The notes under the pieces were generated by a model. The model did no database searches, was not told the DNA's origin, and worked only from the letters and a program-made list of their open reading frames with translations. Shown here in pieces: positions 22,666 to 63,891 of a DNA stretch of 64,000 nucleotides; positions within the stretch are counted from its first letter, which is position 1, and each line of letters opens with the position of its first letter. Source of the DNA: Laetmonice hystrix (Eukaryota). The stretch is from contig OZ249436.1 of assembly GCA_965235115.1 (NCBI GenBank), positions 4,094,001-4,158,000 of the forward strand. The letters are read 5' to 3'. Made by a program: the position numbers and the translations under genes.

Positions 22666-22808
22666 CCCTGCTGATATTCCGACCAGGAACCATTATGTAC
22701 GAATAGCCAGTCTTTTTATAAATTTCTGTAACTCAGGAGTCCCCACAAGCCATTTGTGTGTTTGTGTGTGGAGGGGGGGGGGGGGGTGCCGTCTGCAATC
22801 ACTTCCAA

Positions 22809-25108: not shown

Positions 25109-28100
25109 TTAGTCCTCCATAGAAATGTGCTGGAAGAGATGCGACATAGACTCTTGGTTGTGGATCCTTCGCATGGCTTCCGATAACATAATGCTGATAT
25201 CAACCGTCTTAATCTTGTGGCACTGCATCTTCTGTATGTCGTGAGACACAGTGTTTGTGACGACCACCTGTAACACCAAACCACACAACACTACAGCTAC
25301 GGCAGGTTAACATATCCACATCAATCTGTATGTCGTGAGACACAGTGTTTGTGACGACCACCTGTAACACCAAACCACACAACACTACAGCTACGGCAGG
25401 TTTACATATCCACATCAATCTGTATGTCGTGAGACACAGTGTTTGTGACGACCACCTGTAACACCAAACCACACAACACTACAGCTACGGCAGGTTTACA
25501 TATCCACATCAATCTGTATGTCGTGAGACACAGTGTTTGTGACGACCACCTGTAACACCAAACCACACAACACTACAGCTACGGCAGGTTTACATATCCA
25601 CATCAATCTGTAGATCGTGAGACACAGTGTTTGTGACGACCACCTGTAACACCAAACCACACAACACTACAGCTACGGCAGGTTTACATATCCACATCAA
25701 TCTGTATGTTGTGAGACACAGTGTTTGTGACGACCACCTGTAACACCAAACCACACAACACTACAGCTACGTCAGGTTTACATATCCACATCAATCTGTA
25801 TGTCGTGAGACACAGTGTTTGTGACGACCACCTGTAACACCAAACCACACAACGTTACAGCTATGGCAGGTTTACATATCCACATCAATCTGTATGTCGT
25901 GAGACACAGTGTTTGTGACGACCACCTGTAACACCAAACCAAACAACACTACAGCTACGGCAGGTTTACATATCCACATCAATCTGTATGTCGTGAGACA
26001 CAGTGTTTGTGACGACCACCTGTAACACCAAACCAAACAACACTACAGCTACGGCAGGTTTACATATCCACATCAATCTGTATGTCGTGAGACACAGTGT
26101 TTGTGACGACCACCTGTAACACCAAACCACACAACACTACAGCTACGGCAGGTTTACATATCCACATCAATCTGTATGTCGTGAGACACAGTGTTTGTGA
26201 CGACCACCTGTAACACCAAACCACACAACGTTACAGCTACGGCAGGTTTACATATCCACATCAATCTGTATGTCGTGAGACACAGTGTTTGTGACGACCA
26301 CCTGTAACACCAAACCACACAACGCTACAGCTACGGCAGGTTTACATATCCACATCAATCTGTATGTCGTGAGACACAGTGTTTGTGACGACCACCTGTA
26401 ACACTAAACCACACAACGTTACAGCTACGGCAGGTTTACATATCCACATCAATCTGTATATCGTGAGACACAGTGTTTGTGACGACCACCTGTAACACCA
26501 AACCACACAACACTACAGCTACGGCAGGTTTACATATCCACATCAATCTGTATATCGTGAGACACAGTGTTTGTGACGACCACCTGTAACACCAAACCAC
26601 ACAACACTACAGCTACGGCAGGTTTACATATCCACATCAATCTGTATGTCGTGAGACACAGTGTTTGTGACGACCACCTGTAACACCAAACCACACAACA
26701 CTACAGCTACGGCAGGTTTACATATCCACATCAATCTGTATGTCGTGAGACACAGTGTTTGTGACGACCACCTGTAACACCAAACCACACAACACTACAG
26801 CTACGGCAGGTTTACATATCCACATCAATCTGTATGTCGTGAGACACAGTGTTTGTGACGACCACCTGTAACACCAAACCACACAACGTTACAGCTACGG
26901 CAGGTTTACATATCCACATCAATCTGTATGTCGTGAGACACAGTGTTTGTGACGACCACCTGTAACACCAAACCACACAACACTACAGCTACGGCAGGTT
27001 TACATATCCACATCAATCTGTATGTCGTGAGACACAGTGTTTGTGACGACCACCTGTAACACCAAACCACACAACGTTACAGCTACGGCAGGTTTACATA
27101 TCCACATCAATCTGTATGTCGTGAGACACAGTGTTTGTGACGACCACCTGTAACACCAAACCACACAACACTACAGCTACGGCAGGTTTACATATCCACA
27201 TCAATCTGTATGTCGTGAGACACAGTGTTTGTGACGACCACCTGTAACACCAAACCACACAACACTACAGCTACGGCAGGTTTACACAGCCATATATTTC
27301 CAATCCAAATGATCGTATACATTTTGAGACAGAAGTGTACTCACGTAGCAATCTGCTGTATGGCTAGAGGACACACAGTCTAGATTTAAAGTTACGTGTA
27401 TAACTATGTCTGTGGTGACTTACTTCATCAATAGGAGAATCATCAATTAGTCTGGGCGCATCTGCTGACAGAATACCATGGGTTGCCATCACGTAGATCT
27501 TGTAGGCCCCTCTCTCTTTTAAAATTTCTGCTGCACTGACGAATGATTCAACATCATCTACCATATCATCCTGGCAAAGAAATGATTAGGAAAAAAATAC
27601 ATTACGGAACTTTACCCTTTCCAATGAAACAATCACACAAAGATTGCTTTAAATCGTCCATAGTATTTTCACAGCTAGGTAAGATGACAAACCAAATGAC
27701 AAAGATTTGAAAACCCAATGATTGCTAAATAATATAATGCAGCAGTACAAAGTTATGTAATAATTAAATGAAGAAAACGGAAACTATAGATTTGAGGATG
27801 TTCCATGGTATACTTACAATGACAATTGCAATCCTCCCCCCGACATCTCCAACAACGTTAATCGGGGGCTTCTCTTTGGCCTGTTGCACTGTAAAAAAAT
27901 CCTCTCGTTAACATTCTGTCACCTTTTATACATAAGACATGTCAGATGAATCACACAACTGCCCAAGTTGGCCTGTTAAAAATCAGCTCAAAGCAGCAGA
28001 TAAACAAATAAGACATTGGGGCCATTGCACTAACAGTGACTGGCTGTCGACCTGTGGTTGCTGTGGTTGTCTGACTGACCATGTCACTCTCAGTCAGCCT

Positions 28101-31100
28101 CCGTCTTGTTTGCCAAAATGTCCACCAGGTGGCCATCATCATAGTTCCACAGTGTGCCACTAGAGGGCCCATCTTTACGGTTACTACCGAAAATTAAACG
28201 GCAAAGGTCCTCACTGTCTAGACTTCTTTCTAATTTTACGGCAGACAGCCCTGGTGTAAAAGATTAAGTAAAAATAGATTTTTGGGCATCAACTGACTTT
28301 TACCAAGGACCAAATTAATGTAAGCTGTTCAATAAAATTAACATACTTGGCATAAACTCAAGGCCAAGGCTGAAACTTTGCCTTGTTTCCACCTCAGGAG
28401 GTGGTGGCGAGTTGCGGCCATCATCAATTTCTGAATCTGCCGTTTTTTCTTCTCCATGAATAACAGCAATACCCAGTCGCAGGCGTTCTGCATATGATGT
28501 AGCCCGCTTCACGGCACCCGGATGGCGTGCTACAATGATTGCATTTCGGTAATCTGGGATCTGTAAAAAAAAAAAGATATTCATAATAAAATGTTTCTAG
28601 TGTAGTCAAAGTAATACAAGACCTATTCAGCTATTGTATGCGAGAATGCTATTTATTCAGCCCAAATTAAAGAATTCTGTCTTCAAGTGCAGCAGCCTTT
28701 ATATATTTTATGGTTTGCATTATACACTTACCGACTCTTTGATATACTGGATGAGAAACGGCGATGCACGTAGGTTGTCAACTGGGATGTCAAAGAAACC
28801 TTGAACTTCCTTCTGGTGAAGATCCATGGTGATAATATGGTTAAAACCTGTTCAGACCATGCATGAAGCACTATTTGTTAGTACGTATATTAGCAATCAA
28901 ATGGTGATTAATTTTAATATTGATGTGAATAATGTTTTCTGGGTCACCGGTATCATACACACGTAAAAACCACAATGCAGTCACTATCTTTACGATTCAG
29001 TTTGACCTTATCAATTAATTAATGTTCAAGGTCACATATGTGTGCCAAACGCTTTGACAAAATTATGTGAAAATACCTGACTTGCTGATCATCGTAGCCA
29101 GTAACTTTGAGACTATGGATCCCCGTTTACGCATCTTGCTTTGTTTTGAGTAAGGCATATACGGGATGACACCAACTATCTTCCGTGCTGATGCCGTTCT
29201 ACATGCATACGCCATGATAAGCATCTCCATGATGTCATTATTAACTTCTCTGAAATTAAATTTCTGATATAAGCCTCACCGTATTTGATTTATTTGATTA
29301 GGTGGGAGTACCATGGGACCCATTGGAACACAACTCAAGAGAGAAAAAAAAGTAAAATAAAATTCACAAACGGGTCACAAAATAAACTAAAATTATTCCA
29401 CTGCTGAACTTCTTAATTATTTAGGTAGATGTTCTTACAACCTACTTCTGAGGTTTTTTGCTCTTCCTAATATGGTGGAAATCATGAGCAATGTAAGTGA
29501 ATTGACATAATTTGTTATGAGCATACACAGTATGTGCTTCATTCTTTTCATTTACCACCTTGGGTTGACTTTACGACAAAGGCGCAGTCCTCAAGACACC
29601 TTTTGGAGGTCAAATATCTACCAACTCATGATGGTGAAACAGACAGTGAAACAGAATTAGTCTGGTAGTCAAATATTTACCAACCCATTACGGTGAAACA
29701 GACAGTGAAACAGAATTAGTCTGGTTCTTTTTCTTCATTTTTGTGCAACAATCTAAACGTCGTTACATCAATCGTCCATTCTCTTTATCTGTAAACCTGT
29801 ACAAATGTATATTGTCCAATCCGTACTTGATCCTGTCTGGATGATGTACACATCACGTCCACGAACAGACTCGCGACAATCTAAACCTTACATCAATCGT
29901 CGACTGTCTTTATCTGTAAAACTGTATTGTCAAATCCTTACTTTGATCCTGTCTGGATGATGTACACATCACGTCCACGAACAGACTCGCGACAATCGAA
30001 ACCTTAAATCAATCGTCGACTGTCTTTATTTGTAAAACTGTATTGTCAAATCCTTACTTTGATCCTGTCTGGATGATGTACACATCACATCCATGAACAG
30101 ACTCGCGACAATCTAAACCTTACATCAATCGTCCACTGTCTTTATCTGTAAAACTGTATTGTCAAAGACTTACTTTGATCCTGTCTGGATGATGTACACA
30201 TCACGTCCACGAACAGACTCGCGACAATCTAAACCTTACATCAATCGTCCACTGTCTTTATCTGACTGTATTGTCAAATCCTTACTTTGATCCTGTCTGG
30301 ATGATGTACACATCACGTCCACGAACAGACTCGCGACAATCTAAACCTTACATCAATCGTCCACTGTCTTTATCTGTAAAACTGTATTGTCCAATCCTTA
30401 CTTTGATCCTGTCTGGATGATGTACACATCACGTCCACGAACAGACTCGCGACAATCTAAACCTTAAAACAATCGTCCACTGTCTTTATCTGTAAAACTG
30501 TATTGTCCAATCCTTACTTTGATCCTGTCTAGATGATGTACACATCACGTCCACGAACAGACTCGCAACAATCGAAACCTTAAATCAATCGTCCACTGTC
30601 TTTATCTGTAAAACTGTATTGTCAAATCCTTACTTTGATCCTGTCTGGATGATGTACACATCACGTAGACGAACAGACTCGCGACAATCTAAACCTTACA
30701 TCAATCGTCCACTGTCTTTATCTGTAAAACTGTATTGTCAAATCGTTACTTTGATCCTGTCTGGATGATGTACACATCACGTCCAGGAACAGACTCGCGA
30801 CAATCTAAACCTTACATCAATCGTCCACTGTCTTTATCTGTAAAACGGTAATGTCAAATCCTTACTTTGATCCTGTCTGGATGATGTACACATCACGTCC
30901 ACGAACAGACTCGGCCACTTCAACCATGGTTTCTGAAAACACAAAACATACACTCATTCACTATTTACTTGCACAGTTTTATATGGTCCATAGAATAATT
31001 TAAATATACTTATAGTTAGTATACATGTCAAAGTATGCCTATGAAGATAAAACACAGATCTGGCCTAAAATAATTAGATATGAATCAAGAAGGTAGATTA

Positions 31101-32992
31101 ATTAATTCAGACAATACTCACCTCTATTAGATTTGTGGTAGACATTAGCTCTTCCCAACACGATTCCAAGTTTGCTATGAAATGACCGAGAAACAGTTGA
31201 TTTCACATTATCAACACTTTTAACAAGATTTGTTCCTGATCTCAATAGTTCTAAATTAAAATTTGCCATATGCAGCAAGCCCTAGTTTTAGTGATACTAA
31301 TGAATCAGAGGCTATATATGGCCCTGACTCTAGATTCCTTGACTATCTCTCCCCATTCCGTGGCACTGACTCACATTTTTACATTCCCAACAACAAGCTG
31401 CAAGTTTTCTAGGGTAAGACCCCTACAGCTTACAAGTCAAATATCATCAGCCTCGTCTCGCTGGAAGGGTGTGATAGATGAATATTTTGTCTAGTCATAA
31501 TCATGTTTGCAACGGCACACATGACAAAAAGTGAGGAGGGGGGGGGGCACATCAGGCACAGATCGGGGGTGAGGAGGGTCCAGACCCCTCCTACTCAGGA
31601 CCACCTTAGGTTTTTGCAATTTTCCTGGGGAAGGTTGCCCGTGTTCCCCCACCCCTGCCACTGCAAAAAGTCCTGATCTGTGCCTTTACATCTAAGCAGG
31701 CTATAATATGTTCACGTGGGTTGGGCCTGGATCCGTGCCTTCACTTTTGAACAGGCTATATGATCGGATAGGTTGGGCATGCATTTTTAGGCTTGATCAT
31801 GCATGAAGATGAAATCTGTAGCAGAATTTATAAGTGGATATTCAAGTGAGCATCCAGCACTGCGGGGGAGGGGGGTGGTTCTGGGGGTCCTACCCCCAGA
31901 GAAGGCCAAAAAACGCTATTTCCCGGCATCTGGAGTATGGACTGGGCCCCGTCTTACTAAGAATATTCCTCGCCGAACGGCGACATCGCCAAACGGCGAT
32001 GTCCCGGCGACATCCCCCGATGACTGTCTTACTAACAGGTCGCCGATTGTCGCTTATGCTGATGATAATTCGCCCAGCAGAGAAACTTAAAACACGATGT
32101 TTAACATCCTTTAAAGTCCATTTTACATTATTACCTTTTATTAAATATATATCTAAAATCCTGAGCTCAACTTATGCTGTATGATTATGATAAACTAACA
32201 TTCTAAAACACGCTATTTTAGACGTCCGCCATGCCCGTCCACTGTGTCGGCTAGAATCACTGTCTATTTTGACGTCAGACAATGGTTTGTTTGGACGTCA
32301 CGTAGCGCTCTCTGCAAACACAAACGTTGTGTTCGTGGCACTGGGGAGAGACAGCAAGATCTCTACTTTACGGTTAGACATATTTTAGCTTTTATTTACG
32401 TAAAGATGTACCTCTAATTAACAGTTTTTTATTGGCGATTTTGCGGCGACTGCTCAGTAGCACTCCCCGCCAAAGTCGCCAAAATGGCGAAATCGCCAGA
32501 GAGGGATTTTTCAGTAAGACACCTAGAGCTGGCGATATCGCCGATTTGGGGATTTGGCGGCGATATTGGCGGCGATCTGCGTTAGTAAGTCGGGCCCCAG
32601 GAGATATAGAAATTGTGAAGATTTAGATTTAGCCATGCCTAGCCTACAAATAATTTTTGTCACTTCTTCACACACACAAAAAAGCCCCCCCCCCCCCCCG
32701 ATCCACGGCACTGGCAGTCAGTGACACTGACAGGGTGTGTGTGACTGTGACTGATCGAGTCAGTGGGTGTGACACTGACACTTAGTGACAGACACTGTCA
32801 GTGTCACTGTGTACTGACACTGTCACTTGAGTCTAGTTTGGGTGTGTTACGGTTACTGTTACTGTTACTACTACTAGTTAGTCAGTGTGTAGACAGTCAC
32901 ACTTACTCTGCTATCAGTTGTGACAGTTCAGGGTGAGAATTTCCAGCAAATACCGTCATAGGGCCCCGGGCCCCTGTCGTGTACATCTCCAT
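25109..32992 (-). CDS. PRPSAP2: Phosphoribosyl pyrophosphate synthase-associated protein (PRPSAP1/2-like), 9 coding exons, 361 aa
   Basis: Exons (-): 32907-32992, 31122-31174, 30866-30932, 29077-29249, 28732-28847, 28347-28560, 27818-27888, 27424-27570, 25109-25267. All GT-AG, phases join, total 1086 nt. Peptides include [138 protein letters not shown]. The HGE..DGR.SPP insert and DDMVDD (not DDMADTCGT) identify the non-catalytic PRPSAP rather than PRPS1. Paralogue number is nominal. Confidence 0.95.
25231..27286. repeat. 94-bp tandem array, 22 copies, containing the PRPSAP intron 8 acceptor and the first 37 nt of exon 9
   Basis: Unit starts at 25231, 25325, 25419 ... 27205. On the minus strand each unit has GGTGTTACAG|GTGGTCGTCACAAACACTGTGTCTCACGACATACAGA. 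Confidence 0.97.
29760..30912. repeat. 116-bp tandem array, about 10 copies, containing the last 47 nt of PRPSAP exon 3 and its donor
   Basis: ctttgatcc recurs at 29941, 30057, 30173, 30285, 30401, 30517, 30633, 30749, 30865. Minus strand reads GAGTCTGTTCGTGGACGT..GGATCAAA|GTAAGG. Confidence 0.97.
31945..32597. mobile_element. PIF/Harbinger-like MITE in PRPSAP intron 1
   Basis: ctg|ggccccgtcttactaa ... ttagtaagtcgggccc|cag (TIR 14/16 match), with subterminal tcgcc/ggcga repeats at both ends. Confidence 0.7.
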
Positions 32993-33700
32993 ATTGCAGC
33001 GTTGTGGGCGTCTACCGTGCTCACGACACTGGAGGGGGTAAAACGGATATTTCAACTCCAGAGTGCAGCTCTAGGACGAGGAGAGCACGCGAGCCCTCAT
33101 CAAAACACCTTGGACAATAATGACCTTCACCTTGGCTTCAGACTGCCGAGCCGACATGCAAAATATCTTCGGACTGTGCTGAGTGTCCACAGCTTTAAAC
33201 AGTATGTGGAAAGTCGGGTGCTTAGTCACAGGCCACTACCAGAAAAGGTTTTAACATAAATATAGGATCGCTAAAGGCTAAAAGCGGCAAAGCCGGGGGG
33301 GGGGGGGTGGCACTTCGGGCTATTTTTGCGGGATTGCCGTCGGAATGGTGACGTCATTAGAGATAAATAGGTCAGGCCGAATTCTGGGTGAGAGCACGGA
33401 ACGGCACCATGCGGATTCCACTTCTCGGAACCAAATAAAATGACCCCATTTTACTGTAATTACAGTCGCTCTCATCATTGCCATTGTATTAATTGGTACT
33501 TTTCTTTAAGTTATAGGTCGATACTTCTTTAAAAATAAATTTGCTCACATGAAATACGGAACGAAACTTGACCTCATTACAATTTGGCTTTTGACACAAC
33601 CCTGGAGAAAATCCCTGACCTGATTCTGCGACCGCCTTTTCCGCGCTGGCTGTGGCGTGTGATTGTTTACGACTTTATGACAGGCCGTTGTATTCCTATA
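32993..33700. promoter_or_regulatory. Putative bidirectional promoter and 5'UTRs shared by PRPSAP and NTHL1
   Basis: Divergent start codons are about 0.7 kb apart. The interval is CpG-containing and has a palindromic CRE/ATF site TGACGTCA at 33349-33356. Confidence 0.6.
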
Positions 33701-36700
33701 ATGACGTCCCCTTACTTCACTCCTGCGTTGCGAATGACAAGACTGACAGCGAGAAAGTTGGCCAGTTCCAGCGATAGCAACATCAAGCCTAAGCTGACCA
33801 AACTTTCCAAACGAATCAAATCTAAGAAGGTGGTAAGCAAAGACGGGTTCCCGGCCGGCACTCCAGCCGGCAGTACGTCATGCACCACACGTGGTGCCCA
33901 GCACCCTCGCCCGGAGCCGGCGGAGGGACTGAGTACAGCTGCTACTGCCGCCGTCAAAATCAAGGAAAGTCAGTGTCGACCAGGGACCAACTATCCATCG
34001 CGTACTGCATACAAACGAACATCAGTTAAAGTAGAATACGATGAACGGGGTGGTACAGAGACTAGTGACGGCAGTGATGGACAACCCGTCACTGCCGTCA
34101 AGGCCAAGGCGTTGAAGCTAGGCTGGGAACCCAAGGACTGGAGGCAACAACTTGAAAATATTTATGAGATGCGGAAACACAGAGATGCACCAGTGGATAG
34201 CATGGGGTGTGATCGAATCAGTGATACCCAAGCAGAACCCAAGGTGGTTATTAGAATTGGATAATTGGAAGAGACTAGTACTTCTAGATCTACTAATATT
34301 TGCCATTTCCATTTGGTACTAGTAATAGTAATTTAAATTTCTGCGAATTAAGTTTACTCCATCATCCATGTTCCAAAGACAAAGTACATGATGTATGTAT
34401 GAATGCTTGTAATCCGTATGTATAATGATCTACTACAAACTGAAAATCAGGATAATAGTTTGACCAGAGATCCTGACATGGTTTGATAGTAGATCTAGGG
34501 CTGATGGGTGATATGGGGGGGGGGGGGGGGGGGGGGGGGTTATGGGAAGAATTTGCTAAGTGGGTTCAGCTTCGTCAATTCAGAAAGTTCTTTGGGGAAA
34601 AAAGAAAAATTGGTTGCCAAGGGAGGGGGGAGGGGTGGTTAAACGCTCTAAACACAACAGGTAGAAGCAATTAATCCAGCTGTATAGCCAAGTTATGGGG
34701 AGGGGGGGGGGGGGAGTCGAAGCCCTTCTTGATCTGCATCTGCCTCAGTACCTCTGCAATTGTAACTCCAGAAAATATTCATTATTCTTCATCATCATAC
34801 CTTTTCTCCACAGACAAACAAGCAGAGTAAAAGAAATATTATATATTTCCCTAGGTATACAGGTACCAGTGCCTGCTCAGTTTGATGTTGTCAAGTCAGA
34901 CCAAAGACCAGGTGACAAGTGCAGCAATGATGAAGTTACGAGCTCATGGCTGCTCACCTGACAACATTCTCAATACTTCAGATGAGAAGCTAGGGGAACT
35001 GATATATCCTGTCGGTTTTTGGAAAGTAAGTGTCCTTACAGTCTTCTTGGAAATAGCATAAAAATATATCCGTCCCTGCCCCCCAAAAAAGTTGCCGGGT
35101 CCTGGTATGAAGAACATTTCAAAGGTGATGTGGTTTTTGTTTTTTTTAAATAATTTTTTTTTGGGTTACAGCTGGCTAAATGCTGGTAAGCCTCATAAGA
35201 ATTATCATGTAAAATGAACCCATAAACAAGGGCCATACCTTGGCTGTCATCGCTTTGAATACAACACACTCCTGTTGCAGTGTTGTTAATCAAAAATATC
35301 CATTACAACAATCGTTAGTTTCAAGCCTTACCACTAGGTGGCAGCACAATTCACACAGTCATGCAAGGGAAATAAACACTGATGCACTCCTTCTGAAGTG
35401 ATGTGCACATACCAGAAACCAGGGATTTTCTTTTTTTGGCCTAAGTTAGATCCAAATACCATTGAACATTTTTCCATGATTAATAACCCCAAAAAAGGAA
35501 ACAAAGTGGGTAAAAAATATATTTTCCAATTCAATGGGAAATATCTTATTTTTCGCAAGGACATACCAGGGTATATAAGTAATTGGTGTAGGCCTATCTA
35601 TACAAATGTGTTTTAGAAATACTGATTATAGACTTTTTTGCCAGTTTATCTTTAATTTAACTCCTATTGATCAGGTTAATATAATCGCATCAATAATGTC
35701 CCATGATCTTTGAGAGCATCAATAATGTCCCATGATCTTTGAGAGTGGTGTCTGTAAATTTGGATTGACCTTGTATCCAGACAAAAGTGCAGTATATCAA
35801 GAAAACGACACGTATCCTGAAAGAACAATATGATGGTGACATCCCTGACACCATTGAGGGCCTCTGCAAACTCCCAGGTACTGTAGGCCTACTTTAGCTC
35901 ATGCAGAGCTACTCAGTTACAAAAATCTAAATTTCTTATGTTAAAAAAAATTAGTGAATTGCTGTCCACCTTTTAGGGGGGGGGGATTGTTTTTTTGTTA
36001 CACATGACGACAAATTGTCAATAAGGGCTACAAACTTGCGATAGTCATGAGTAATAACATGTATCATACCCAATGGTCTGCGGCAAATTGTCTGGTCTAA
36101 AGAAACTTGTAGTTTAACCTGAAGTTCAAGCCATGTCGAGCCTTCTTGAATTATTTAATCTGCTGACAGTAAAGTATCCGTTGCAGGTGTCGGACCAAAA
36201 ATGGCCCATATCACAATGAAATCTGCGTGGAATGTGATCACTGGTATAGGAGTGGATACACATGTCCATCGTATAGCGAACCGTCTTGGGTGGGTCCGTA
36301 AAGCCACAAAACAGCCGGAGGATACACGCAAAGCTCTAGAAGATTGGCTTCCTAGGTTAGTCAACTGCTAGCTCCTTCTTCTAAATTCTATTCAGTTTGT
36401 CAGAACCGTTAAAGCCACGAGGTTGTAGAATCTTGGGACGAGCCAGCAAAATACAGTTTATTGCAATAACTTAGTCTACCATGAATTCTTCATCAAGTTT
36501 TTATTCAACATTATTCTATAGTTACTTAAGTTGATACTTGATATTTCTTTTTCAGAGAATGCTGGGAAGAAGTCAATATATTGTTTGTGGGCTTCGGCCA
36601 ACAGACATGTCTGCCGGTTGGCCCGAAGTGTGTCACGTGTCTCAATAGACGGCTGTGTCCCACTGGTCGGAGTAACACACGTGGTATGAAGGTTGAGACA

Positions 36701-36784
36701 GACTTAAAGGTTGAACCAAAACTCGAGACAACCACCTTACCAGCAGAGACGTTCAGCATTAAAGTTGAGGTTAAGAAAGAGTAA
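33701..36784 (+). CDS. NTHL1: Endonuclease III-like DNA glycosylase/AP lyase, 5 coding exons, about 402 aa
   Basis: Exons (+): 33701-34243, 34855-35025, 35781-35877, 36187-36355, 36556-36784. GT-AG, phases join, total 1209 nt. Motifs: [39 protein letters not shown], Hh[30 protein letters not shown], 4Fe-4S C-x6-C-x2-C-x5-C ([17 protein letters not shown]). Start taken at MTSPYF (33701); an in-frame ATG at 33677 is an alternative. Confidence 0.95.
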
Positions 36785-37296
36785 AGATAACTAACAAAAC
36801 AAAAAAAATGTTGGGGATGTTATCTTGGGGAAAGTGATCGGATGTCCCAGGCATATTGCCTTACAATTTTGTTGTACGTCACACAAGAAATCCATGTTTA
36901 TTATACATTTGTCTAATTATGTATAATAAAGTTTTTTCACATGTTCCTGTCGCTATGCTTCAATCGTCATTATATTTTCAGTCAAAAACAAGTCAGAGTA
37001 ATAAAGTATGCTTGAATAGAATTACAAGAATAGATCCATCAAAAGCAGCGACAAAAAAACAAATTTCTAATTGGATGATTGCTAAAAAACCTTGAAATAG
37101 TCTGTTGAGGATTGGTGCAGTTTGCAGAGGTGGTGGTGAATTTAGGCCGTCTCAAGTTAGACTGTCATTTTAGGGAATGTTTGGAAAATGTACTGCTTTA
37201 TTCGCTGGAATCTTTATACTATTACCCAGGAAAAAGAAATGATTGAATATCACTGAATATAAGTAGTTTGCAGGGTCGTGCATGCTGGGCTTAAGA

Positions 37297-53000: not shown

Positions 53001-56000
53001 GCCAAGGAAACAACACCAATCCACATAGACGGTAACACACAACCAGAGTCTGCAGATTCAGCTAACCAGACACGGTCAGTGACATTATTTCAAACTCATT
53101 GAACTACAATGTATGTCAATGATGAAATGAAGTTTCTTTGTTTTTTTTTTGTTCAAATATTCTTTATTGCAGCATCAATCAAGTTTTACAAAGTTACAAA
53201 TAACATTACATCAACTTCTTCCTGGCTGTATAGGTTGTTTTTCAGCAATTGCTGGTTTTCGGCGGCAACCTAGTAAAACTCCCATCCTTTGATTTTTTAA
53301 TAGTTAGTGGCTTAACTATTCATGCCTTTGTGAAAAGGCATTTTCTTCAGTATACAGAGCTATCGTTGTTGTATAATGGTAAAAAATCTGTTTGGGGAAA
53401 AAATGCAGGTTTTGTTTTTATGTACCTTTCTATATGTTGTCACGTGAATAGGCCCATTTGCACTTTCAAAAAAAGTTGTGACCTTTCAGTGAAGCTATAT
53501 TTGAGGATGTTCTCTGTGGGCCAAGAGTTTTCTAAGATGCAGTAGTCTATCAGAAACAGTTTTAGAAAATTTGGAGGGGAGATGTCAATGTGTTGCTTCA
53601 GATATTGTACATGTAACTTAAAAATGTAAGCCCTGCCAGGATCTCCACTGTACGTCTCACCGGTACAGCCAAGAACGGACAACCATACATGTACATGTAT
53701 TTGGAAGCTTAGTTTGACGTTAGTCCTCCAGATGGCGCCCCGGGTTGAGTTGTAAAGGCCCTCATGTATGGTCCAAAGGTCCGATAGTTTAATTACGATT
53801 AGATTTCCTTGAATTCTGTGTGTATATATGTACGCACGTGCATCAAGTGTTGTCAAGTTATGTTTTACTTGGGCGGAGCAGGGGGTGGGGTCGGGGTGGG
53901 GTCGGGGGTTTGAAGTTGACTCTATAATTATAAATCATTAATGGGAGGATGATGATGATGATGATAGTGATGATGAGGACGATTTGCATGAAGAATAAAG
54001 ATTTGGACAGTTTCCTTGTAGTCATTAGCGTCTTCCTGTATGTCTAACCGACTCCGATGGACCAGTGTCGTTCGTCCAGGGGTGACTGCACCCAGGCACA
54101 AACCTGGACCCCCTGTAGTTTGTAATGGTTGCGTCCAGAATGGAGAGCCACCCAATCCCCCCTCTAGTGTGAACTCCTCCCAGACTCCTCATCAGGCATG
54201 TCGGTGTGGGCACACTGGTGGTGGCTGTCAGTGACAGTCTGGCTGGTAGATATTGTTTCAGTTTTAGTTCTGGCTATCTGTTTGGTAACATGAAATCAGG
54301 TTAATCAATATGAACAATACATGGCCTGCATGTCAGGCCCAGTCGAGGTAGGCTTATTTGACTTTAGAAAAAAGGTGAAAATTAATTGGAAAAAAAAACT
54401 GGAAAAGAAGCATCCCTTAATTCTCCAACCTACTTCCTAAATTCATATTAATTAATTAATTAATTTAGGTATTTTATTTGTAAATATATTTCTTGGAAAT
54501 GTTCTTTGTTATTTAATTATATAATTTTTTGTAAAAGCCTTTAATTTAATTTTCTATCACAGATGGGGGTGGGGGTGGGGGTGGGGGGGGGGGGGGTCGT
54601 CCCAGGTATGGAACCCTCCGATCAGATATGGTTTGGTAGAGTTGACCTGGTTAAGGACAGAGGTCATCCCATCGCCACACCAGTCCTACAACAAATAACC
54701 TGTCATACCATGTGTTCTGGTCTCACCTAGATTCCCGGTGGGGAGGGGGGGGGGTATGTATGCTGTCATTGGGGGCAACACTATAGCGGGGCCGTCAGTT
54801 GGTGACCTCTTTCATGACCAGGTTTGCAATCCTTGACCAAGAAATGTCATGACCTGGCTGGGAAACGAGGTCAAACCTGAGGAAGCTGCCCCCCCTGATC
54901 GGAGTGGTTGAGTCTGTTTATATTAGGTCAAGGCATTATGTAAGTGGGTTGTGCCCGAGCTGGGGGGGGGGGTGGAACGCGGAGTCAGTCAGAGCTCACA
55001 GGGGATCATACCAGGTGTACCCTTGTGACCTACCCTGTTACAGATGTATGATCACAATTAAACTTGATAAATTCGTTGAATACACAATTTAGTGAGCAGA
55101 CAGGATGGTGTAAGACATCTATAGCTGCCATCCTGCCACTGGGGTTTCACTTCTAGCACAGGGAAGAGATACATCATCTGTAATAATAGGAGCAAGCAGA
55201 TGGTCACAGTAAAATAATTTTAAATTTGTAGATTTGTATAGTCCATAATTAAGGTCAGAATACCACCCTGGTTGAGAAGTGAGATAACGTTTGGTAAACC
55301 TTTCCTTGTTGATATTATTGTCTCCTAGATTTCTGACAGACGTGTATGTACATGTATGTATCTGCTGTCCAGAGGTCCTGTCTGGGCGGCGGGGGGTTGG
55401 GGGGTTGTGGGGGGGGGGGGGGATTCAAACCCGTTGAAAATGGCCTGTTCTCAGATAGCGCCAACCGAATGCTATACAGGTTCTTTAAAATATTCAGATT
55501 GCCTTTTTGCATATATACTCCGTGAGAAAAGATCACTTCTATGTGTCCTTATGTATCCGTATGCCGTCTAGATATTCAAGCACAATCCAAACATTAATTG
55601 GTAAGAAAGGTACACATTACATATGTGGTCGATGAAGCGGGTGTTACCTCATTTATAATGGTATGTCCCAAACCCATACACCCCACATTTACAATGGAAT
55701 GTCCTGAAACCAGCGTTCCTAGACAGATTGTGGCACTGTTTGAGGACAAGTACGCGAGTCTGGCACCCTTTCGATCACTGACCAAGGTCAAGCTCACGGC
55801 AACAGGCCCTCTCAAGGTCAAACTCAGATTGTGGCACTGTTTGAGGACAGGTACTCGAGTCTGGCGCCCTTGCAATCACTGACCAAAGGCAAGCTCACGT
55901 CGACAGGCCCTCTCAAGGTCAAACTCAGATTGTGGCACTGTTTGAGGACAGGTACTCGAGTCTGGCGCCCTTGCAATCACTGACCAAAGGCAAGCTCACG

Positions 56001-59000
56001 TCGACAGGCCCTCTCAAGGTCAAACTCAGATTGTGGCACTGTTTGAGGACAGGTACTCGAGTCTGGCGCCCTTGCAATCACTGACCAAGGGCAAGCTCAC
56101 GGCGACAGGCCCTGTCAAGGTCAAACTTAGATTGTGGCACTGTTTGAGGACAGGTACTTGAGTCTGGCACCATTGTAATCACTGACCAAGGGCAAGCTCA
56201 CGGCGACAGGCCCTCTCAAGGTCAAACTGACCCTGTTTTTGGACAGAGTCTGACAGGTTGGCTAGGACAATGCCGGTAACTAAGTGGTGCGTGTTGCACG
56301 TCTAGCCCAACCACGGTCCCCAGACCCCCTCTAAACCCCCTCCCCTACAAACATATCCCTACCCCTATCCCTGACGTGAACCCTAACCCTGACCTAAACA
56401 AGTCTTGGGGAAGTTATCATGAGGAAATATGCATGGTAGATATAATGGTATATTACCATGTGTTCTGGTCTAGTCTGGTCTAATACCATGTGTTCCGGTC
56501 TAATCTGGTCTAATGGTATTACCATGGTATATTACCATGTGTTCCGGTCTAATCTGGTCTAATGGCATTGGTATATTACCATGTGTTCTGGTCTAATCTG
56601 GTCTAATGGTATTACCATGGTATATTACCATGTGTTCTGGTCTGATCTGGTCTAATGGTATATTACCATGTGTTCTGGTCTAATCTGGTCTAATGATATA
56701 TTACCATGTGTTCTGGTCTAATCTGGTCTAATGGTATATTACCATGTGTTCTGGTCTAATCTGGTCTAATGATATATTACCATGTGTTCTGGTCTAATCT
56801 GGTCTAATGGTATATTACCATGTGTTCTGGTCTAATCTGGTCTAATGGTATATTACCATGTGTTGTGGTCTAATCTGGTCTAATGGTATATTGCCATGTG
56901 TACTGGTCTAATCTGGTCTAATGGTGTGTTCTAGTCTAATCTGGTGTAATGGTATATTACCATGTGTTCTAGTCTAATCTGGTGTAATGGTATATTACCA
57001 TGTGTTCTGGTCTAATCTGGTCTAATGGTATATTACCATGTGTTCTGGTCTAATCTGCTCTAATGGTATATTACCATGTGTTCCGGTCTAATCTGGTCTA
57101 ATGGTATATTGCCATGTGTTCCGGTCTAATCTGGTCTAATGGTATATTACCATGTGTTCTGGTCTAATGGTATATTACCATGTGTTCTGGTCTAATCTGG
57201 TCTAATGGTATATTACCATGTGTTCCGGTCTAATCTGGTCTATTAAATAGTATATTACCATGTGTTGTGGTGTTATGGACCACGAAATGTGCTCGGAAGT
57301 AAAGATCTGTCACTATAACCTTATCTCTAACCCCCAACCACGGTCTCTAGATCCCCCTACAAACATATATCCCTACCCCTATCCTCTTGGGGAAGTTTTC
57401 ATGAGGAAATAACCCCATACATGCAGGTATTACGTTATAGGTCTATTGTGCTATGGTACGTTTGACAACGGCACTACTAATCATGGGCGTCCGCAGGAAT
57501 CTTTCCTTTTTTTTGGGGGGGGGGGGGGCGGGGTTGAACTTATACGTTCATTATATGCCCCCCCCCCCCCATTTATATGTTTTCCACTTGCAGTATACGT
57601 TACAGCGTTGATTGTGTACATTGTATTCCACTTGCAGTCTGAAGGAACATATTGCGTTCTATGAATGAAAAAAAAACTTCCCTGATTTTGCTGTGGAAAA
57701 GGACGATCGGCAACTTAATACTTTCTTTTTGTAAGTGGCCTTATGAAAAGGTATTTAAAAAATATAACATTACGAACTCCAAGTACCAAGAAAGCAAACC
57801 CGTCGGACCTATATTTCAGGGATTGCAAGTCCATTGAACCTGCATTTTAGGTGACTTGAAAATCTGTTAGACCGACCGGCATCAGTTTGACTTTTATTAA
57901 TAGATCTCATGATAAGCATTTATACAGCTGTGTAGCCAAATAAAAAAAGGTAGCTAGCCGGACACTCTAGCTCTGTCTGGTGTTCCTGATTCTGGCTTTT
58001 GTACTACCTATTCACCCGACATCGGCGTTCCATCGTCCCAGAAACTGACCCAGCCTGGCACTAACGGCAATATCAATCGTTGCACGTCCTTGATATTGAA
58101 CCCACGTGCCACAAGCTGACCTCCCACACGACCTGCCATGGGTACTTGTGTTGGTCCGCTTGGTGTGTCATCGTTTAACCTTGGAATTTGTTGTTTAACT
58201 TTCGATATTGTTGAACCAGTTGGGCGACCTCCGAAAGCTCTCTTAGTTTATTGTTAGACTCGGTCATGATAGTGTCCTACATTTAGGCCTAGCCATTTAG
58301 AATTTTAGCCTGGTAAACTCCTGGAATGTTGAGCTTCGTGAAGGCCGATACCTGCACTAAGGGGTGGGCTGGGGTACGTGGGGTGTAGTTGGAGGGCCGA
58401 GACCAGATCTCGCAGCAGGGGGATGCATTTTGATGGGGGGGGGGGGGGGGGGTCAGGGGTAGAATTTGGTAAGGGGGGGGGGGGTCAGCATGGTCAAATC
58501 AGAAAGTTCTATGGGGAAAAAAGAAAAATTGGTTCCCAAGGGGGGGGGGGGGTCGAACCCCGAACCAGGCTGGATCCGCCCCTCCCGTTTGGGGGGGGGG
58601 GGGGGGGCTGCACCCAGTTTCGGCGCCTATAGGCCTATACATTTGGGGGTTGAAATTAGTGAACCTCAGTATGACATGAGATTACCAGTCGATAAATTGA
58701 TGACTAATCGCTAATTATGGCTAAATTGATTTCTTTGACCTATATTCTGGAATAGCTCTTCTAAAAATCCTAAAATCCTGTAAAGATCCACTACTACTGT
58801 CTAACTACAGGGTGGAATGTGCCGTTTACTTACGGGCCACCCCCATCCAGAGATACATACATGGACTCGCCTGGGTCAGACTCACCTGTCTGTTCGTCTG
58901 GTCACTCAGATACTACGGAAGCTACCATCTGTCGGGGGGGGGGGTGCAGAATGTTGTGTCTGGCAAGAGGAAGGTACCATCCTTCACAGAAGGGGGGGAT

Positions 59001-62000
59001 AAAGAAAGATTTAGTTCTATTATATTTCATAATCACAAAATAGCCTCAGTTATAACACTATACTGTTATCATTACCTTGCGATAAAAGTTCAGTGGGAAA
59101 TACAATAATTTTTTTAAAAGATTTATTTTAGGGCAACATATTAATTGGCATTAGGTAGGGAGGGCCCAGGTAGGCCAAGTATGATAATATATTGTATATC
59201 CTACCCCAGTAAAAACCTGTACTCACGGGCTTTGCCCGAATTCCCCAACTGTTCCCCCCCATCGTTTTTTCTTGGGGGGGGGGGCTGCCCCTCTGCCCCC
59301 CCCCCGGCTCGTACGCCCACGCCTGTACTGGACTTTCACTAAGAGAACACCCCTTGGGGTCGGTAGTCCCCAGGTGACGTCATTAATGAGGTTAACTCAT
59401 TCATCTATAGTTTTTTTCCTGGCGTCATTCTGTGTGAGCCTGCCCTAGAAAATGCTCACTCGCACCCTATTGTTTTCCTTGTCACTTAGCAGCATTTCTG
59501 ATTGGCTGCTTTCTCGGTTAATCAACAAGTGGAGGAGAGTAAAAAAACCGACGTCGGGTCGGGATGTCAGACGGGCGGTTATTAGTGGCAGACGGGCGGG
59601 TGAGGGTTTGACGGCAGCGGGCGGCCGGGGAGGCGTGCGCCCAGCCCGGACGAAAGGGGGAGGGTTGTCGGTACGGACATGACCATTGTACCGGCAGGTG
59701 AGCTCCACCAAACTCCCACCCCTCCCACCGGCTAGCTTGGTCTCGCCCATGGCCGGGCTGTCTGCTCGGTGACAGCAGCGTCCGGGGCCGGTGGCCGATG
59801 GCCGGCCTCGATCAGACCCGCGCCGTAATTTACGGTGGCCCAAAAGGGACATCGTTATTTGTCTACAATAGGTTATATTTTCCCTACAACTTTTTAAAGA
59901 AACATTTTAATTTTTTTCCAATCTATTATTCTATTTCCACCCGGGGAAAAGTATTTCCACCCAGGTGAAAAGTATTTCCACCCGGGTGAAAAGTATTTCC
60001 ACCCGGGTGAATCGCGTGATACCAATCATGATACCAATGCCAACGTGGATGCTGATGCAGCAGGTAGATGCTATTCTTTAACCACTACAGGCAGGTTAAT
60101 CACAGGCAGTGCCAATCAAAACATAAGCTACGCCCAGTTTCCGCCAAATTCGATTCGGCAACACGACTGACACGGGACCAACTGATTGTAGTAATTACTC
60201 CCCTATATACCCCACCTGACTGTATTTGTCTTTTTGAAAATGCACGGGCATCAGGCGTAACCCAATTACTTTGACAATGTCCCTAAAGAGAAAAGTTGTA
60301 TAGTCCTCTACAGGAATCGAACCCAGGCCCCAAGATTACTGCACCCATTCGCATAGCATAAGGTATCGACGCCCATGCCCACTCGGCCACCGCCACTTAG
60401 TGATTAGGACCCTATCTACCCCATCTGACCCCTTTTGGGCCACCGTAGTAAATACCGAAAGGGAGCAGAAAATTGGCACTGTTTTGGGACGCTGCCCCCA
60501 CTGCTATGGCGGTGGATAATTACGTACAGGATATAAGATTGCAGTAGTCATAACCAATTTTTTATAGAGGTTTTTTTCAGATTGATCGTGATTCTGACAT
60601 ATCACGCATCCCATTTTCCATCAAATCTAAAAAATTCGGGACATTTTCTTACAGGGATGCCAGCATTGCATTAGAGCAGCTTTTGGAACTGAAGGACACC
60701 TCGGAAGGTGAAGTGAACGTCGTGATGACGTCAGGTATCCATGGTTACAAGCCTCTCCACAAGTGTCGGGTGTGTGGACGCAGCTTCCGAGGTCTCCGCT
60801 ACCTGGGACTGCACATGCGCATTCATACAGGTATGATGACAGGAATCATTTCACACACACACACACCCTTCCATACACTCAGATAATGAATAACTTTACT
60901 TAACCCCCCCTTCCATACACTCAGATAATGAATAACTTTACTTACCCCCCCCCCCCCATGCACTCTGGGCCCGGTTTTTGTGTGTTTACTTTTCCACCGT
61001 GAGCAAGGGTGAGCATAAGCTCATGCTCACTGTTTTCATGTTTTTTTGTTGTTTTTTTCCCCGTGAGGCAAGCTTATGGTGAGCAAGCTCAAGGGAAAAA
61101 AAGAAAATGGTGAGCAAAGCAGTGAGTATGAGCTCATGCTCACCCTTGCTCAGCTCAGCCCACCCTTGCTCACGGTGGAAGAGTAAACAAAAAAGGTGGC
61201 CCAGATAAATCACTTGACTTACCCCTCGCCCCCCCCCCCCCATTCCAAACACTTTACACTCAGATAAGTCACTTAGCACCCTGGTCCCACCACTTCTAAC
61301 ACTAGGACAAATCCCCACAAATAACACTGAGCTCTACATCTCTTCAGACTAAGTATGACCCCAGTAGAACTTGTCAGTTGATGGAAACTGCTCGATCCTA
61401 TAACAAACTCTATGATGCAGTGTACCGGGAACCATAACTTAATGCCGGCTTGTTGTATGACAGTACATTGTTGTACATGTATTAATGTATAGAATGAACA
61501 GTTTGTTTTTCTTTGATCCCTGTGTTAGGAGAGCGGCCTCACAAGTGTACCCTGTGCCCCAAGACTTTCGGTACGAAAGATACATTAGCCAAGCACATCC
61601 AGGCTCACTCAACTGAACGACACTATCAGTGTGGAGAGTGCGGCAAACTCTTCAAGCGCATCTCTCACGTCAAGGAACACCTAAAGATCCACAGCTCCGA
61701 ACGGCCATACCCGTGCCATTACTGCGAAAAGTCTTTCAAAACTACGGTCAGTAACCAAGAGATAATGTCCAACGAATGTCTTTCTAAAAGTCCTTCAAAA
61801 CTACGGTCAGTAACCAAGAGATAATGTCCAACGAATGTCTTTCTAAAAGTCCTTCAAAACTACGGTCAGTAACCAAGAGATAATGTCCAACGAATGTCTT
61901 TCTAAAAGTCCTTAAAAACTACGGTCAGTAACCAAGAAATAATGTCCAACGAATGTCTTTCTAAAAGTCCTTCAAAACTACGGTCAGTAACCAAGAGAAA

Positions 62001-63891
62001 ATGTCCAACGAATGTCTTTCTAAAAGTCCTTTAAAACTACGGTCAGTAACCAAGAGATAATGTCCAACGAATGTCTTTCTAAAAGTCCTTCAAAACTACG
62101 GTCAGTAACCAAGAGATAATGTCCCAGAATTGTCTTTCAAAAAGTCCTTTAAAACTACGGTCAGTAACCAAGAGATAATGTCCAACGAATGTCTTTCTAA
62201 AAGTCCTTCAAAACTACGGTCAGTAACCAAGAGATAATGTCCAACGAATGTCTTTCTAAAAGTCCTTCAAAACTACGGTCAGTAACCAAGAGATAATGTC
62301 CAACGAATGTCTTTCTAAAAGTCCCTCAAACTATGGTCAGTAACCAAGAGATAATGTCCAACGAATGTCTTTCTAAAAGTCCTTCAAAACTACGGTCAGT
62401 AACCAAGAGATAATGTCCAACGAATGTCTTTCTAAAGGTCCTTCAAAACTACGCTCAGTAACCAAGAGATAATGTCCAACGAATGTCTTTCTAAAAGTCC
62501 TTCAAAACTACGGTCAGTAACCAAGAGATAATGTCCAACGAATGTCTTTCTAAAAGTCCTTCAAAACTACGGTCAGTAACCAAGAGATAATGTCCAACGA
62601 ATGTCTTTCTAAAAGTCCTTCAAAACTACGGTCAGTAACCAAGAGATAATGTCCAACGAATGTCTTTCTAAAAGTCCTTCAAAACTACGGTCAGTAACCA
62701 AGAGATAATGTCCAAGAATTGTCTTTCTAAAAGTCCTTCAAAACTATGGTCAGTAACCAAGAGATAATGTCCAACGAATGTCTTTCTAAAAGTCCTTCAA
62801 AACTACGGTCAGTAACCAAGAGATAATGTCCAAGAATTGTCTTTCTAAAAGTCCTTCAAAACTATGGTCAGTAACCAAGAGATAATGTCCAACGAATGTC
62901 TTTCTAATAAAACCGGCCTGCCAGTATTTTTTTTTTTGGGGGGGGGGGGGGGGTCATTAATCACAGGAAAACGATGATATTTGTTCCTACTTTAGAGTAA
63001 AGATGAATATCTGTATCTCATATAGGAGGTAGCAGTAGTTTTCACTACCTTCAGCAAATTATTATGTTTAACCTCTCAAATAACATGACAATACTGTGTT
63101 GTTATACCACAGAATGCATGTAAAGTTCACCTGCGGACACACACAGATATCTTTCCATGGCAATGCCGTTACTGCCACCGTACATTCCGGGAGAAAGGTT
63201 CCCTGGACCGCCATCTTCGTGTCCACACTGGTAGTAAACCTTACAAGTGCAGACATTGCTTGCGATGCTTTGCTGAACATGGCACCCTCAACCGTCACCT
63301 GAAGGCAAAGAGTAAGTAGGACCTGCCCCATTTTTCAAAGGTCATTTGGTATTTGACGTTGGCATTAAGTTGGAATGAGCAAGTAGGACCTGCCCCTTTT
63401 TCAAACATTATTTGGTGTTTGACGTTGGCATTAAGTTGCAAAAGTACTCCTATACTTTCGGATAGGATATTCAGAGTTGACATGTTTCAAATATTTTGCA
63501 AAATATAGAATGCTGTATGAAAGGGTTTTGGATTGTGAAACCTAATACAAGATTCATGCTATTTCAACAATTTCTTCTGTCAGGAAGACCAAATGCTATA
63601 TTTATTTGTTCCCGTCCCTGTCTTCAGTCAGGAACAATAATTTTCTGACTCCTTTTTTGTATTTAATCGTTCCCGCTAGTTCCCTGCACCAAACAGCTCC
63701 AAGTCCTGCGGGAGAAAGGCCCACGTTCGGCTCCGAGTGGTGGCGCTGCTGATGTCAGCGCCGGCGGCGATGATGGCGCCCCCACCGGCGGGGAGGAGGA
63801 TCAGACACCCACTGTGTTGGCCGAGTTCTCCTCTATGGTCGCCCACACCCAGCAATACATTATACAGACGGACGACTCACAGGACAATGTG
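44068..63891 (+). CDS. E4F1: E4F transcription factor 1 orthologue (multi-C2H2 zinc finger), at least 14 coding exons, 3' end beyond the window
   Basis: Exons (+): 44068-44122 (aaaATG, inferred first exon), 45416-45942, 49332-49482, 49610-49905, 50157-50283, 50463-50541, 51380-51587, 51747-51833, 52025-52183, 52797-53074, 60655-60830, 61529-61746, 63113-63311, 63680-63891. All GT-AG with matching phases. E4F1-diagnostic strings recalled from the vertebrate protein: EDTHRCGKCNLVFTNLEDYIHHK, FKTKGSLKRHRRRHTGERPYKC..FGESGALSRHLKSRTPCT, FREKGSLDRHLRVHTG..FAEHGTLNRHLK, TVLAEFSSMVAHTQQYII. Confidence 0.88.
44572..45135. repeat. Foldback element built from ggacatttgcccc / ggggcagatgtcc subrepeats in E4F1 intron 1
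   Basis: C-rich left arm (44572-44770) and G-rich right arm (44815-45135) are inverted versions of one motif around a ccctaac tract. The same motif occurs at 23075-23155. Confidence 0.6.
46520..46758. mobile_element. CAGGGGCGGATCC-type MITE family B, copy 2 (inverted relative to copy 1)
   Basis: caggggcggatccagg ... cctaaatccgcccctg. Related G-run elements also appear near 12590-12920, 13060-13230, 21450-21690 and 58410-58590. Confidence 0.75.
46870..48590 (+). mobile_element. Degenerate non-LTR retrotransposon (L1/Tx1-like) ORF2 reverse transcriptase fragment in E4F1 intron 2
   Basis: Translated motifs KTPGSDGLPAEFYKFFW, ISLLNTDYK, DQTAYIKGRFIGENIR, DFEKAFHTVSW, RGIRQGCPISAYLF, QVADDTTL, AGLKINLNKT, WRQRNLSIKG, NGGLKMVDF. 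Several in-frame stops and frameshifts. Confidence 0.9.
50577..51330. repeat. Minisatellite, 40-bp unit, about 18 copies, filling E4F1 intron 6
   Basis: Unit ttgtatcttggagggcttacaacttgatgacaaagtaact. Confidence 0.95.
55725..56229. repeat. Tandem repeat, about 101-bp unit, 5 copies
   Basis: agattgtggcactgtttgaggaca..caagctcacg..ggccctctcaaggtcaaact repeated. Confidence 0.95.
56443..57270. repeat. Minisatellite, 38-bp unit, about 21 copies
   Basis: Unit atggtatattaccatgtgttctggtctaatctggtcta. Confidence 0.95.
60303..60395 (-). mobile_element. tRNA-derived SINE head / tRNA-like Pol III promoter
   Basis: Minus strand has A box TGGCCGAGTGG (60379-60389) and B box GGTTCGATTCC (60313-60323). No convincing acceptor stem or cloverleaf, so not called a tRNA. 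Confidence 0.55.
60965..61204. mobile_element. Foldback MITE family A, copy 3 (E4F1 intron)
   Basis: ctgggcccggtttttg..ttccaccgtgagcaaggg ... cacggtggaagagtaaacaaaaaaggtggcccag. Interrupts a local repeat whose uninterrupted copies read cactCAGataa, supporting a 3-bp CWG target duplication. Confidence 0.8.
61728..62906. repeat. 59-bp tandem array, about 20 copies, containing the E4F1 exon 12 donor site
   Basis: Unit ttcaaaactacg|gtcagtaaccaagagataatgtccaacgaatgtctttctaaaagtcc. The first copy is the true exon end at 61746. Confidence 0.97.

What the first reader, a model, noticed from the sequence alone, without database searches (positions are those of the whole stretch)
25231..63440. Recurrent local tandem amplification centred on exon-intron junctions
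Seen: three large arrays span splice junctions (25231, 29760, 61728). Small 2-3 copy duplications also start at or near other junctions (63311-63440, 60866-60960, 35688-35745), and the 40-bp array starts about 35 nt after a donor (50541). Units are unrelated to each other and derive from local unique sequence. Inference: an active process amplifies 30-120-bp local segments (slippage, microhomology repair or microDNA rolling-circle reinsertion). It may be biased to junctions, or survive there because one intact exon copy remains. This would be a route to intron expansion and new exons. This is the best candidate here for an undescribed system, but novelty was not checked against the literature.
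Basis: inference. Interest (0 to 1): 0.7.

Follow-up and report, generated by a model that had tools for sequence, protein, structure and literature searches.

The report
Splice-junction "mirage" minisatellites, worm genome
Four short stretches holding an exon edge and its splice signal have been copied head-to-tail 2 to 22 times in two ordinary genes, a repeat type already known from lancelets and some human genes, and here they occur about as often as chance predicts in a genome packed with such repeats and short introns.

Summary
The arrays are real. Three large ones (94 bp x22, 116 bp x10, 59 bp x20) and one duplication (66-67 bp x2) contain a splice site plus part of its exon, in a PRPSAP gene and an E4F1 gene of a probable annelid. 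The other three repeats lie 36-43 nt from a site and do not span it. Spliced contigs join the PRPSAP exons through the authentic copy at both its arrays. Junction-centring is not shown. A modest excess within 50-100 nt (P 0.002-0.02) vanishes when intron length is controlled. Copies share variants in a stepwise pattern, like the non-junction arrays, which argues against one rolling-circle insertion. The structure is published: amphioxus 'mirages' (PMC3087553) and human F7, CBS, 6-16 and lamin B2 VNTRs (PMC1557585). This scan has already found it many times, in this genome and in two others. Verdict: new member of a known kind, low interest.

The parts
25109..32992 (-). PRPSAP-family gene (phosphoribosyl pyrophosphate synthase-associated protein), 9 coding exons, 361 aa
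   Evidence: Spliced model open, all 8 introns GT-AG, 331 of 362 columns identical to P0001 and colinear; 5 joints and 2 loose ends in spliced contigs of run X4
25231..27286 (-). 94-bp x 21.9 mirage array: 57 nt intron end + acceptor + first 37 nt of the last exon; authentic acceptor is the last copy (exon starts at 25267), 21 decoys upstream
   Evidence: 22 acceptors, score 13.4-14.7 on a matrix trained on this window; X4 contig joins exon 8 to one exon piece that continues into the unique exon (loose end maps to 25201)
29749..30913 (-). 116-bp x about 10 mirage array: last 48 nt of exon 3 + donor + about 68 nt intron; authentic donor is the first copy (30866); distal unit degenerate (128 bp)
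   Evidence: one decoy donor at 30174 scores 9.9 vs 8.0 for the authentic one; X4 contig runs exon 4 - one exon piece - unique exon 3 - exon 2 (loose end maps to 30914 and 31122)
29609..29725 (.). 59-bp x2 intronic duplication, not at a junction (92 nt after collapsing)
33701..36784 (+). NTHL1 (endonuclease III-like) gene, 5 exons
   Evidence: HhH-GPD; human NTH1, E 7e-23
35687..35745 (.). 29-bp x2 duplication ending 36 nt before the exon 3 acceptor; contains no splice site
39758..42671 (-). RING1/RNF2-type gene, 3 coding exons
   Evidence: RING2, E 2e-83
44120..63891 (+). E4F1-like zinc-finger gene, 14 exons in the window (runs off the end; exon 1 provisional)
   Evidence: 904 codons with no stop; best named hits E4F1 of Lingula and Haliotis at 73-74% on exon 13; joints 12/13 and 13/14 colinear with Lingula and Owenia proteins
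50584..51310 (.). 40-bp x about 18 intronic minisatellite starting 43 nt after the exon 6 donor (50541); collapsed intron only 151 nt
60866..60965 (.). 42-bp x2 duplication 36 nt after the exon 11 donor; poly-C at its ends
61727..62907 (+). 59-bp x 20 mirage array: last 20 nt of exon 12 + donor + 39 nt intron; authentic donor is the first copy (61746)
   Evidence: the exon copy alone differs from the array consensus at unit position 8; variants in copies 17-20 alternate as a two-unit block. No RNA laid here
63310..63438 (+). 66-67-bp x2 duplication: last 2 nt of exon 13 + donor; second donor GT>GC
   Evidence: No RNA laid here

Best explanation
These are 'mirage' minisatellites: by-products of a very active, locus-local minisatellite process in a genome with short introns. 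(1) Seed, inferred: a 20-120-bp stretch of unique DNA is duplicated in tandem by replication slippage or repair fill-in, with little or no terminal homology. (2) Growth, shown as stepwise: repeated slippage, unequal exchange or conversion expand the duplicate to 5-60 copies, carrying variants and blocks of units along while edge units lag. (3) Filter, inferred: arrays wholly inside coding exons are purged, but a duplication across a junction automatically leaves one full exon-contiguous copy and pushes the rest into the intron. With a median collapsed intron of 278 nt, a 60-116-bp unit in such an intron overlaps a junction 31-64% of the time. (4) Silence, shown for two arrays: the spliceosome uses the site contiguous with the intact exon, the first donor (as in human F7) and the last acceptor (exon definition, inferred). 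Decoy use would give premature stops. The arrays most likely have no function beyond lengthening introns.
For: Spanning rate matches chance window-wide and within introns. 22 of 26 locus-specific arrays lack a splice site yet look the same: the 8 non-junction and 3 junction arrays tested all have 96-99% unit identity and shared variants far above an independent-mutation null. Spliced contigs use the authentic copy only, with zero cover over the intronic part of the 94-bp unit. Every decoy read-through hits a stop within 1-27 codons. Edge units diverge, as described for BflGb6. Published precedent with normal splicing.
Against: In 24-64 kb spanning is marginally high (4/14 vs 1.4-1.6, P 0.04-0.06). 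Window-wide proximity is in excess: <=50 nt 11/26 vs 5.2-5.9 (P 0.008-0.02), <=100 nt 15/26 vs 7.6-8.5 (P 0.002-0.007), threshold-free P 0.006-0.08 by model. The within-intron test removes this but would also hide a per-junction bias. Junction-spanning units are longer (59-116 vs median 37, P 0.005), as both a length effect and a distinct process would predict. The 1-24 kb gene model is provisional. Contigs drop rare isoforms, no RNA was laid on the E4F1 arrays, and all four runs are one sample.
Confidence: 0.75

Rival explanations
1. Junction-biased seeding: duplications arise preferentially at or near splice sites, for example through co-transcriptional splicing pauses, R-loops or nucleosome edges, on top of the general minisatellite process.
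For: Proximity excess under the position-uniform null (11/26 within 50 nt vs 5.2-5.9); 4/14 spanning in 24-64 kb; many similar loci noted elsewhere in this genome (unchecked notes).
Against: 0/12 spanning in 1-24 kb; within-intron test null (4/25 vs 4.8; <=50 nt 11/25 vs 9.9; mean percentile 0.52); transposons in long introns and intergenic DNA could only be masked from within-window copies, which inflates the first test; several thresholds were tried.
Confidence: 0.17
2. Single-step reinsertion of a rolling-circle product from a small circle (microDNA) creates each array.
For: Units are local unique DNA of 30-120 bp and 96-99% identical. The 94-bp unit junction has a 12-nt block matching neither flank, so seeding was not a clean slip there.
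Against: One event predicts private variants. Instead 16 of 22, 9 of 21 and 13 of 21 variant calls are shared between copies, including compound variants in distant copies and a two-unit block (null 1.2-2.3). Terminal homology varies from about 0 to 8 nt with no common signature. A circle as the first seed is not excluded.
Confidence: 0.04
3. The decoy sites are functional: regulated alternative splicing, recursive splicing through the AG/GT motif of the 94-bp unit, or nascent exons.
For: Decoy sites are as strong as the authentic ones and mostly intact; each 94-bp acceptor is followed directly by GT; human CBS and 6-16 use the next one or two pseudo-sites.
Against: Only the authentic forms appear in the X4 contigs; read-throughs and in-frame pseudo-exons contain stops; the donor regenerated after use of a decoy acceptor scores 1.6, below all 28 annotated donors (lowest 4.1 on the near-identical matrix).
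Confidence: 0.03
4. The arrays are assembly artefacts.
For: No independent assembly was available; the runs found are one sample and may be the source.
Against: Copies carry structured variants. In the three unspliced runs the bin over the 94-bp unit has summed depth about 23x, 20x and 74x the flank (rough, the tool warns this is no copy number, and X3 disagrees with 22 copies).
Confidence: 0.01

Closest known systems
Amphioxus 'mirage' minisatellites (Adh3, globins BflGb6 and BflGb9, troponin C, PGBD5); passages of PMC3087553 and PMC3902484 read; Canestro et al. 2002 known only as cited there
   Same: Tandem units spanning an intron/exon boundary, both donor-type and acceptor-type; unit sizes in the reported 10-160 bp range; many copies keep AG/GT; normal mRNA; edge units excluded from homogenisation; proposed as a route to new introns.
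   Different: Host is a probable annelid, not a cephalochordate; copy numbers 10-22 exceed the 3-6 reported for BflGb6; length polymorphism and somatic instability untested here.
Human exon/intron-border VNTRs: F7 IVS7 (37 bp x5-9), CBS intron 13 (15-20 repeats), interferon-inducible 6-16, lamin B2 (100 bp x10-15), PDGF intron 4 (81 bp x16-18); abstract and passages of PMC1557585 read
   Same: First unit spans the exon end and donor; identical pseudo-donors follow; the most upstream donor is used (F7, lamin B2), as in the 116-bp array here.
   Different: The passages describe donor arrays only; the 94-bp array is an acceptor array where the last of 22 sites is used. CBS and 6-16 leak to the next pseudo-sites; no leak was seen in contigs here.
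Intron gain by tandem duplication of an AG/GT-containing segment (Rogers model as cited in PMC3087553; PMC3265369, abstract read)
   Same: Local duplication that copies splice signals.
   Different: That model creates a new intron inside an exon; here existing junctions are copied and no new intron or exon is seen.

Membership tests
Mirage minisatellites | Head-to-tail minisatellite-like units derived from the gene's own sequence | tested here: met
Mirage minisatellites | Unit spans an exon/intron boundary and keeps the splice signal in many copies | tested here: met
   22 of 22 acceptors (94 bp), 9 of 10 donors (116 bp), 19 of 20 donors (59 bp); in the 66-bp pair the second donor is GC; junctions validated by homology and spliced contigs
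Mirage minisatellites | Either the 5' or the 3' boundary can be duplicated | tested here: met
   One acceptor array, three donor repeats
Mirage minisatellites | Regular splicing of the mRNA despite cryptic sites | tested here: met
   Both PRPSAP arrays, dominant form in contigs of one run; the two E4F1 repeats were not tested
Mirage minisatellites | Concerted turnover with edge units excluded | tested here: met
   Shared variants and block duplication; divergent edge units in all three large arrays
Mirage minisatellites | Length instability between haplotypes or somatically | not testable with these tools
   One sample, contigs only, no genome held
   Spanning not enriched window-wide or within introns; proximity modestly enriched under one null only; 26 arrays, one window
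Rolling-circle (microDNA) reinsertion | Copies made in one event, so variants are private | tested here: not met
Rolling-circle (microDNA) reinsertion | Matching extrachromosomal circles exist | not testable with these tools
   No eccDNA data

The most novel reading that the evidence does not exclude
In this annelid lineage mirages are not sporadic but genome-wide and seeded preferentially at or near splice junctions by a transcription- or splicing-coupled mutational process, and the spliceosome reliably skips 20 or more identical upstream acceptors. The genome would then be a natural library of hundreds of splice-site-choice experiments and a direct test bed for intron gain by duplication.
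Probability: 0.17. Interest if true: 0.6.

Novelty: new member of a known kind. Interest (0 to 1): 0.18.

Why it matters
As it stands it is a clean extra example of a little-known repeat type outside chordates, and it shows how minisatellites inflate short introns about 3- to 11-fold without changing the mRNA. The acceptor array is a ready-made minigene for asking how the last of 22 identical 3' splice sites is chosen; the F7 work I read covers donors only. It would matter more if a genome-wide test showed a real junction bias, because that would tie tandem duplication to splicing and give intron-gain models a measurable rate.

Tried and rejected
No whole genome is held, so no genome-wide test. 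Run search listed 4 runs of one sample and no holder on record as RNA; X4 is treated as mRNA-derived only because its contigs skip GT-AG introns. The 4/5 intron of PRPSAP was not bridged by a listed contig (5 of 6 introns in the stretch were). The gene in 1-24 kb could not be identified: no hit; one search gave two exon-sized homologues (P0122, P0124) and four repetitive chance hits. Its exon list is hand-picked, and I ran strict, middle and loose versions. Rows dropped before counting: TRF rows with period under 20, overlapping rows of one array, and the degenerate in-frame 24-bp repeat inside E4F1 exon 2 (114 rows to 30 arrays); then 4 arrays inside dispersed repeats (30 to 26); the intergenic 21-bp array is outside the within-intron test (25). 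A nested antisense gene in E4F1 intron 10, which could make the 101-bp array a fifth junction case, found no support but is not excluded. A common microhomology signature was sought and not found. Literature searches for annelid cases, microDNA links or a genome-wide enrichment test returned nothing on point; PMC12783039 (passages) reports intronic minisatellites in earthworm metallothionein genes, not junction-spanning ones in the passages shown. The library lacks most subscription papers. Look-ups near this place and for enrichment tests in earlier findings were blank.
Full report
Setting. The window is animal DNA, probably an annelid: a PRPSAP exon's best named invertebrate hits are Capitella (75%) and Owenia (77%). 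No whole genome is held. I built four gene models from the sequence. PRPSAP (minus, 25109-32992, 9 exons) is 331 of 362 columns identical to P0001 and colinear. NTHL1 (plus) and a RING1/RNF2 gene (minus) are supported. E4F1 (plus, 44120 to beyond 63891) gives 904 codons with no stop; its best named hits are E4F1, and the joints beside the repeats are colinear with Lingula and Owenia proteins. A fifth, unidentified multi-exon gene lies on the minus strand of 1-22 kb; its model is provisional.

Observation. TRF gave 114 rows, which I merged into 30 arrays of period 20 or more covering 18,023 bp, 28% of the window. Four contain a splice site. The 94-bp array has 22 acceptors of the last PRPSAP exon. 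The 116-bp array has the donor of PRPSAP exon 3 in 9 of 10 copies. The 59-bp array has the donor of E4F1 exon 12 in 19 of 20 copies. The 66-67-bp pair starts 2 nt inside exon 13, with the second donor changed to GC. Units have no match elsewhere in the window, except four that sit in dispersed repeats.

Splicing. Four runs of one sample hold the locus, none on record as RNA. I laid them on 27150-29900, which holds about one unit of each PRPSAP array. Run X4 behaves as mRNA: its contigs skip 5 of the 6 introns at GT-AG ends. One contig joins exon 8 to a single copy of the repeated exon piece and continues into unique exon 9 sequence (loose end at 25201); X4 has no cover over the intronic part of that unit. 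So the last of 22 identical acceptors gives the dominant mRNA. A second contig runs exon 4, one exon piece, unique exon 3, exon 2, so the first donor is used even though one decoy scores higher on my window-trained matrix (9.9 vs 8.0). Read-through into any of the four repeats meets a stop within 1-27 codons, and both possible pseudo-exons carry a stop in the gene's frame. In X1-X3 the bin over the 94-bp unit has about 23, 20 and 74 times the flank depth; this is rough and not independent, but it argues against an assembly artefact.

Is it more than chance? I collapsed each array to one unit and computed, for each unit length, the share of allowed positions (not wholly exonic, not swallowing an exon) that span or approach a junction. 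In 1-24 kb, 0 of 12 versus 1.1-1.2. Window-wide, 4 of 26 versus 2.4-2.8 (P 0.22-0.30; 2.2-2.9 with strict or loose left-gene models). Against my reading, proximity is in excess: within 50 nt 11 of 26 versus 5.2-5.9 (P 0.008-0.02), within 100 nt 15 of 26 versus 7.6-8.5 (P 0.002-0.007), threshold-free P 0.006-0.08, uncorrected for four thresholds. When each array is moved only within its own collapsed intron the signal goes: spanning 4 of 25 versus 4.8, within 50 nt 11 of 25 versus 9.9, mean percentile 0.52; for the four confirmed genes alone 4 of 13 versus 2.6 (P 0.23). The median collapsed intron is 278 nt, and the four junction units had a 31-64% chance of spanning a junction given their intron. 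So arrays favour short introns over long introns and intergenic DNA. That may reflect unmasked young transposons or a true per-junction bias; one window cannot separate them.

Mechanism. In all 11 arrays tested, 3 at junctions and 8 not, variants are shared between copies far more than independent mutation gives. Examples: a two-base variant in 94-bp copies 7, 11, 13, 18, 20, and a three-base variant in 59-bp copies 7, 17, 19 alternating with another in 18 and 20. This is stepwise growth with block duplication, not one rolling-circle insertion. The null ignores mutation hot spots, but compound variants are hard to explain that way. Edge units diverge from the consensus. Terminal homology runs from about 0 to 8 nt, and the 94-bp unit junction has a 12-nt block matching neither flank, so the seeding step remains inferred. 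That the authentic copy lies at the exon end of each array follows from geometry and is no evidence of design.

Comparison with what is known. Earlier notes of this scan gave me the name 'mirage' and the paper; I checked it. [quoted passage not shown] PMC3902484 (passage) adds troponin C and PGBD5. PMC1557585 (abstract and passages) describes the human F7 VNTR, with the most upstream donor chosen, and lists CBS, 6-16, lamin B2 and PDGF. PMC3265369 (abstract) shows intron creation by segmental duplication. Canestro et al. 2002 I did not read. Supplements were not opened; BflGb6 unit data are in them. Searches found no paper on annelid mirages or on a genome-wide enrichment test, within a library that lacks most subscription journals. 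The scan has noted the pattern in at least 8 other places of this genome and in two or more other genomes (unchecked notes, not independent support).

Verdict. Real arrays, a known kind, five of six mirage features met and one untestable. Junction bias is unproven and unnecessary to explain the count. Novelty: new member of a known kind. Interest 0.18.

Noticed in passing
window 194-22322, minus strand: Unidentified multi-exon gene (about 18-20 candidate exons). Exon 2722-2918 has exon-sized homologues P0122 and P0124 (55% over 56 aa and 41% over 66 aa); no Pfam family. A likeness to otoancorin/stereocilin-type proteins is recalled, from no call.
   Followed up: partly
window 6925-8658: Putative intron of 1734 nt of which 1688 nt is one 37-bp array; collapsed length 83 nt, array ends 22-25 nt from both splice sites. 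The 37-bp array at 341-996 ends 8 nt from another putative acceptor.
   Followed up: partly
window 46850-48660: Decayed LINE-like reverse-transcriptase fragment with stops and frameshifts in E4F1 intron 2 (translation; family label from recall).
   Followed up: no
window 1899-2146, 22800-23058, 60967-61200: Copies of a dispersed element with internal 20-bp repeats, in both orientations; other dispersed pairs at 43710-43924/46520-46734 and 34522-34633/58435-58552. Possibly MITE-like.
   Followed up: no
window 55724-56301 and 58011-58247, minus strand: Possible antisense exons inside E4F1 intron 10: a donor-like site in each 101-bp unit and a stronger one 4 nt outside the array, plus a 79-codon open frame. 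No family or homologue found.
   Followed up: partly
window 28918-29078: High heterozygosity in the sample: alternative contigs differ by 6 substitutions and 1 insertion in about 160 nt.
   Followed up: no
window 32992-33701 and 42671-44120: Two divergent gene pairs with short spacers: PRPSAP/NTHL1 (about 0.7 kb) and RING/E4F1 (about 1.4 kb).
   Followed up: no
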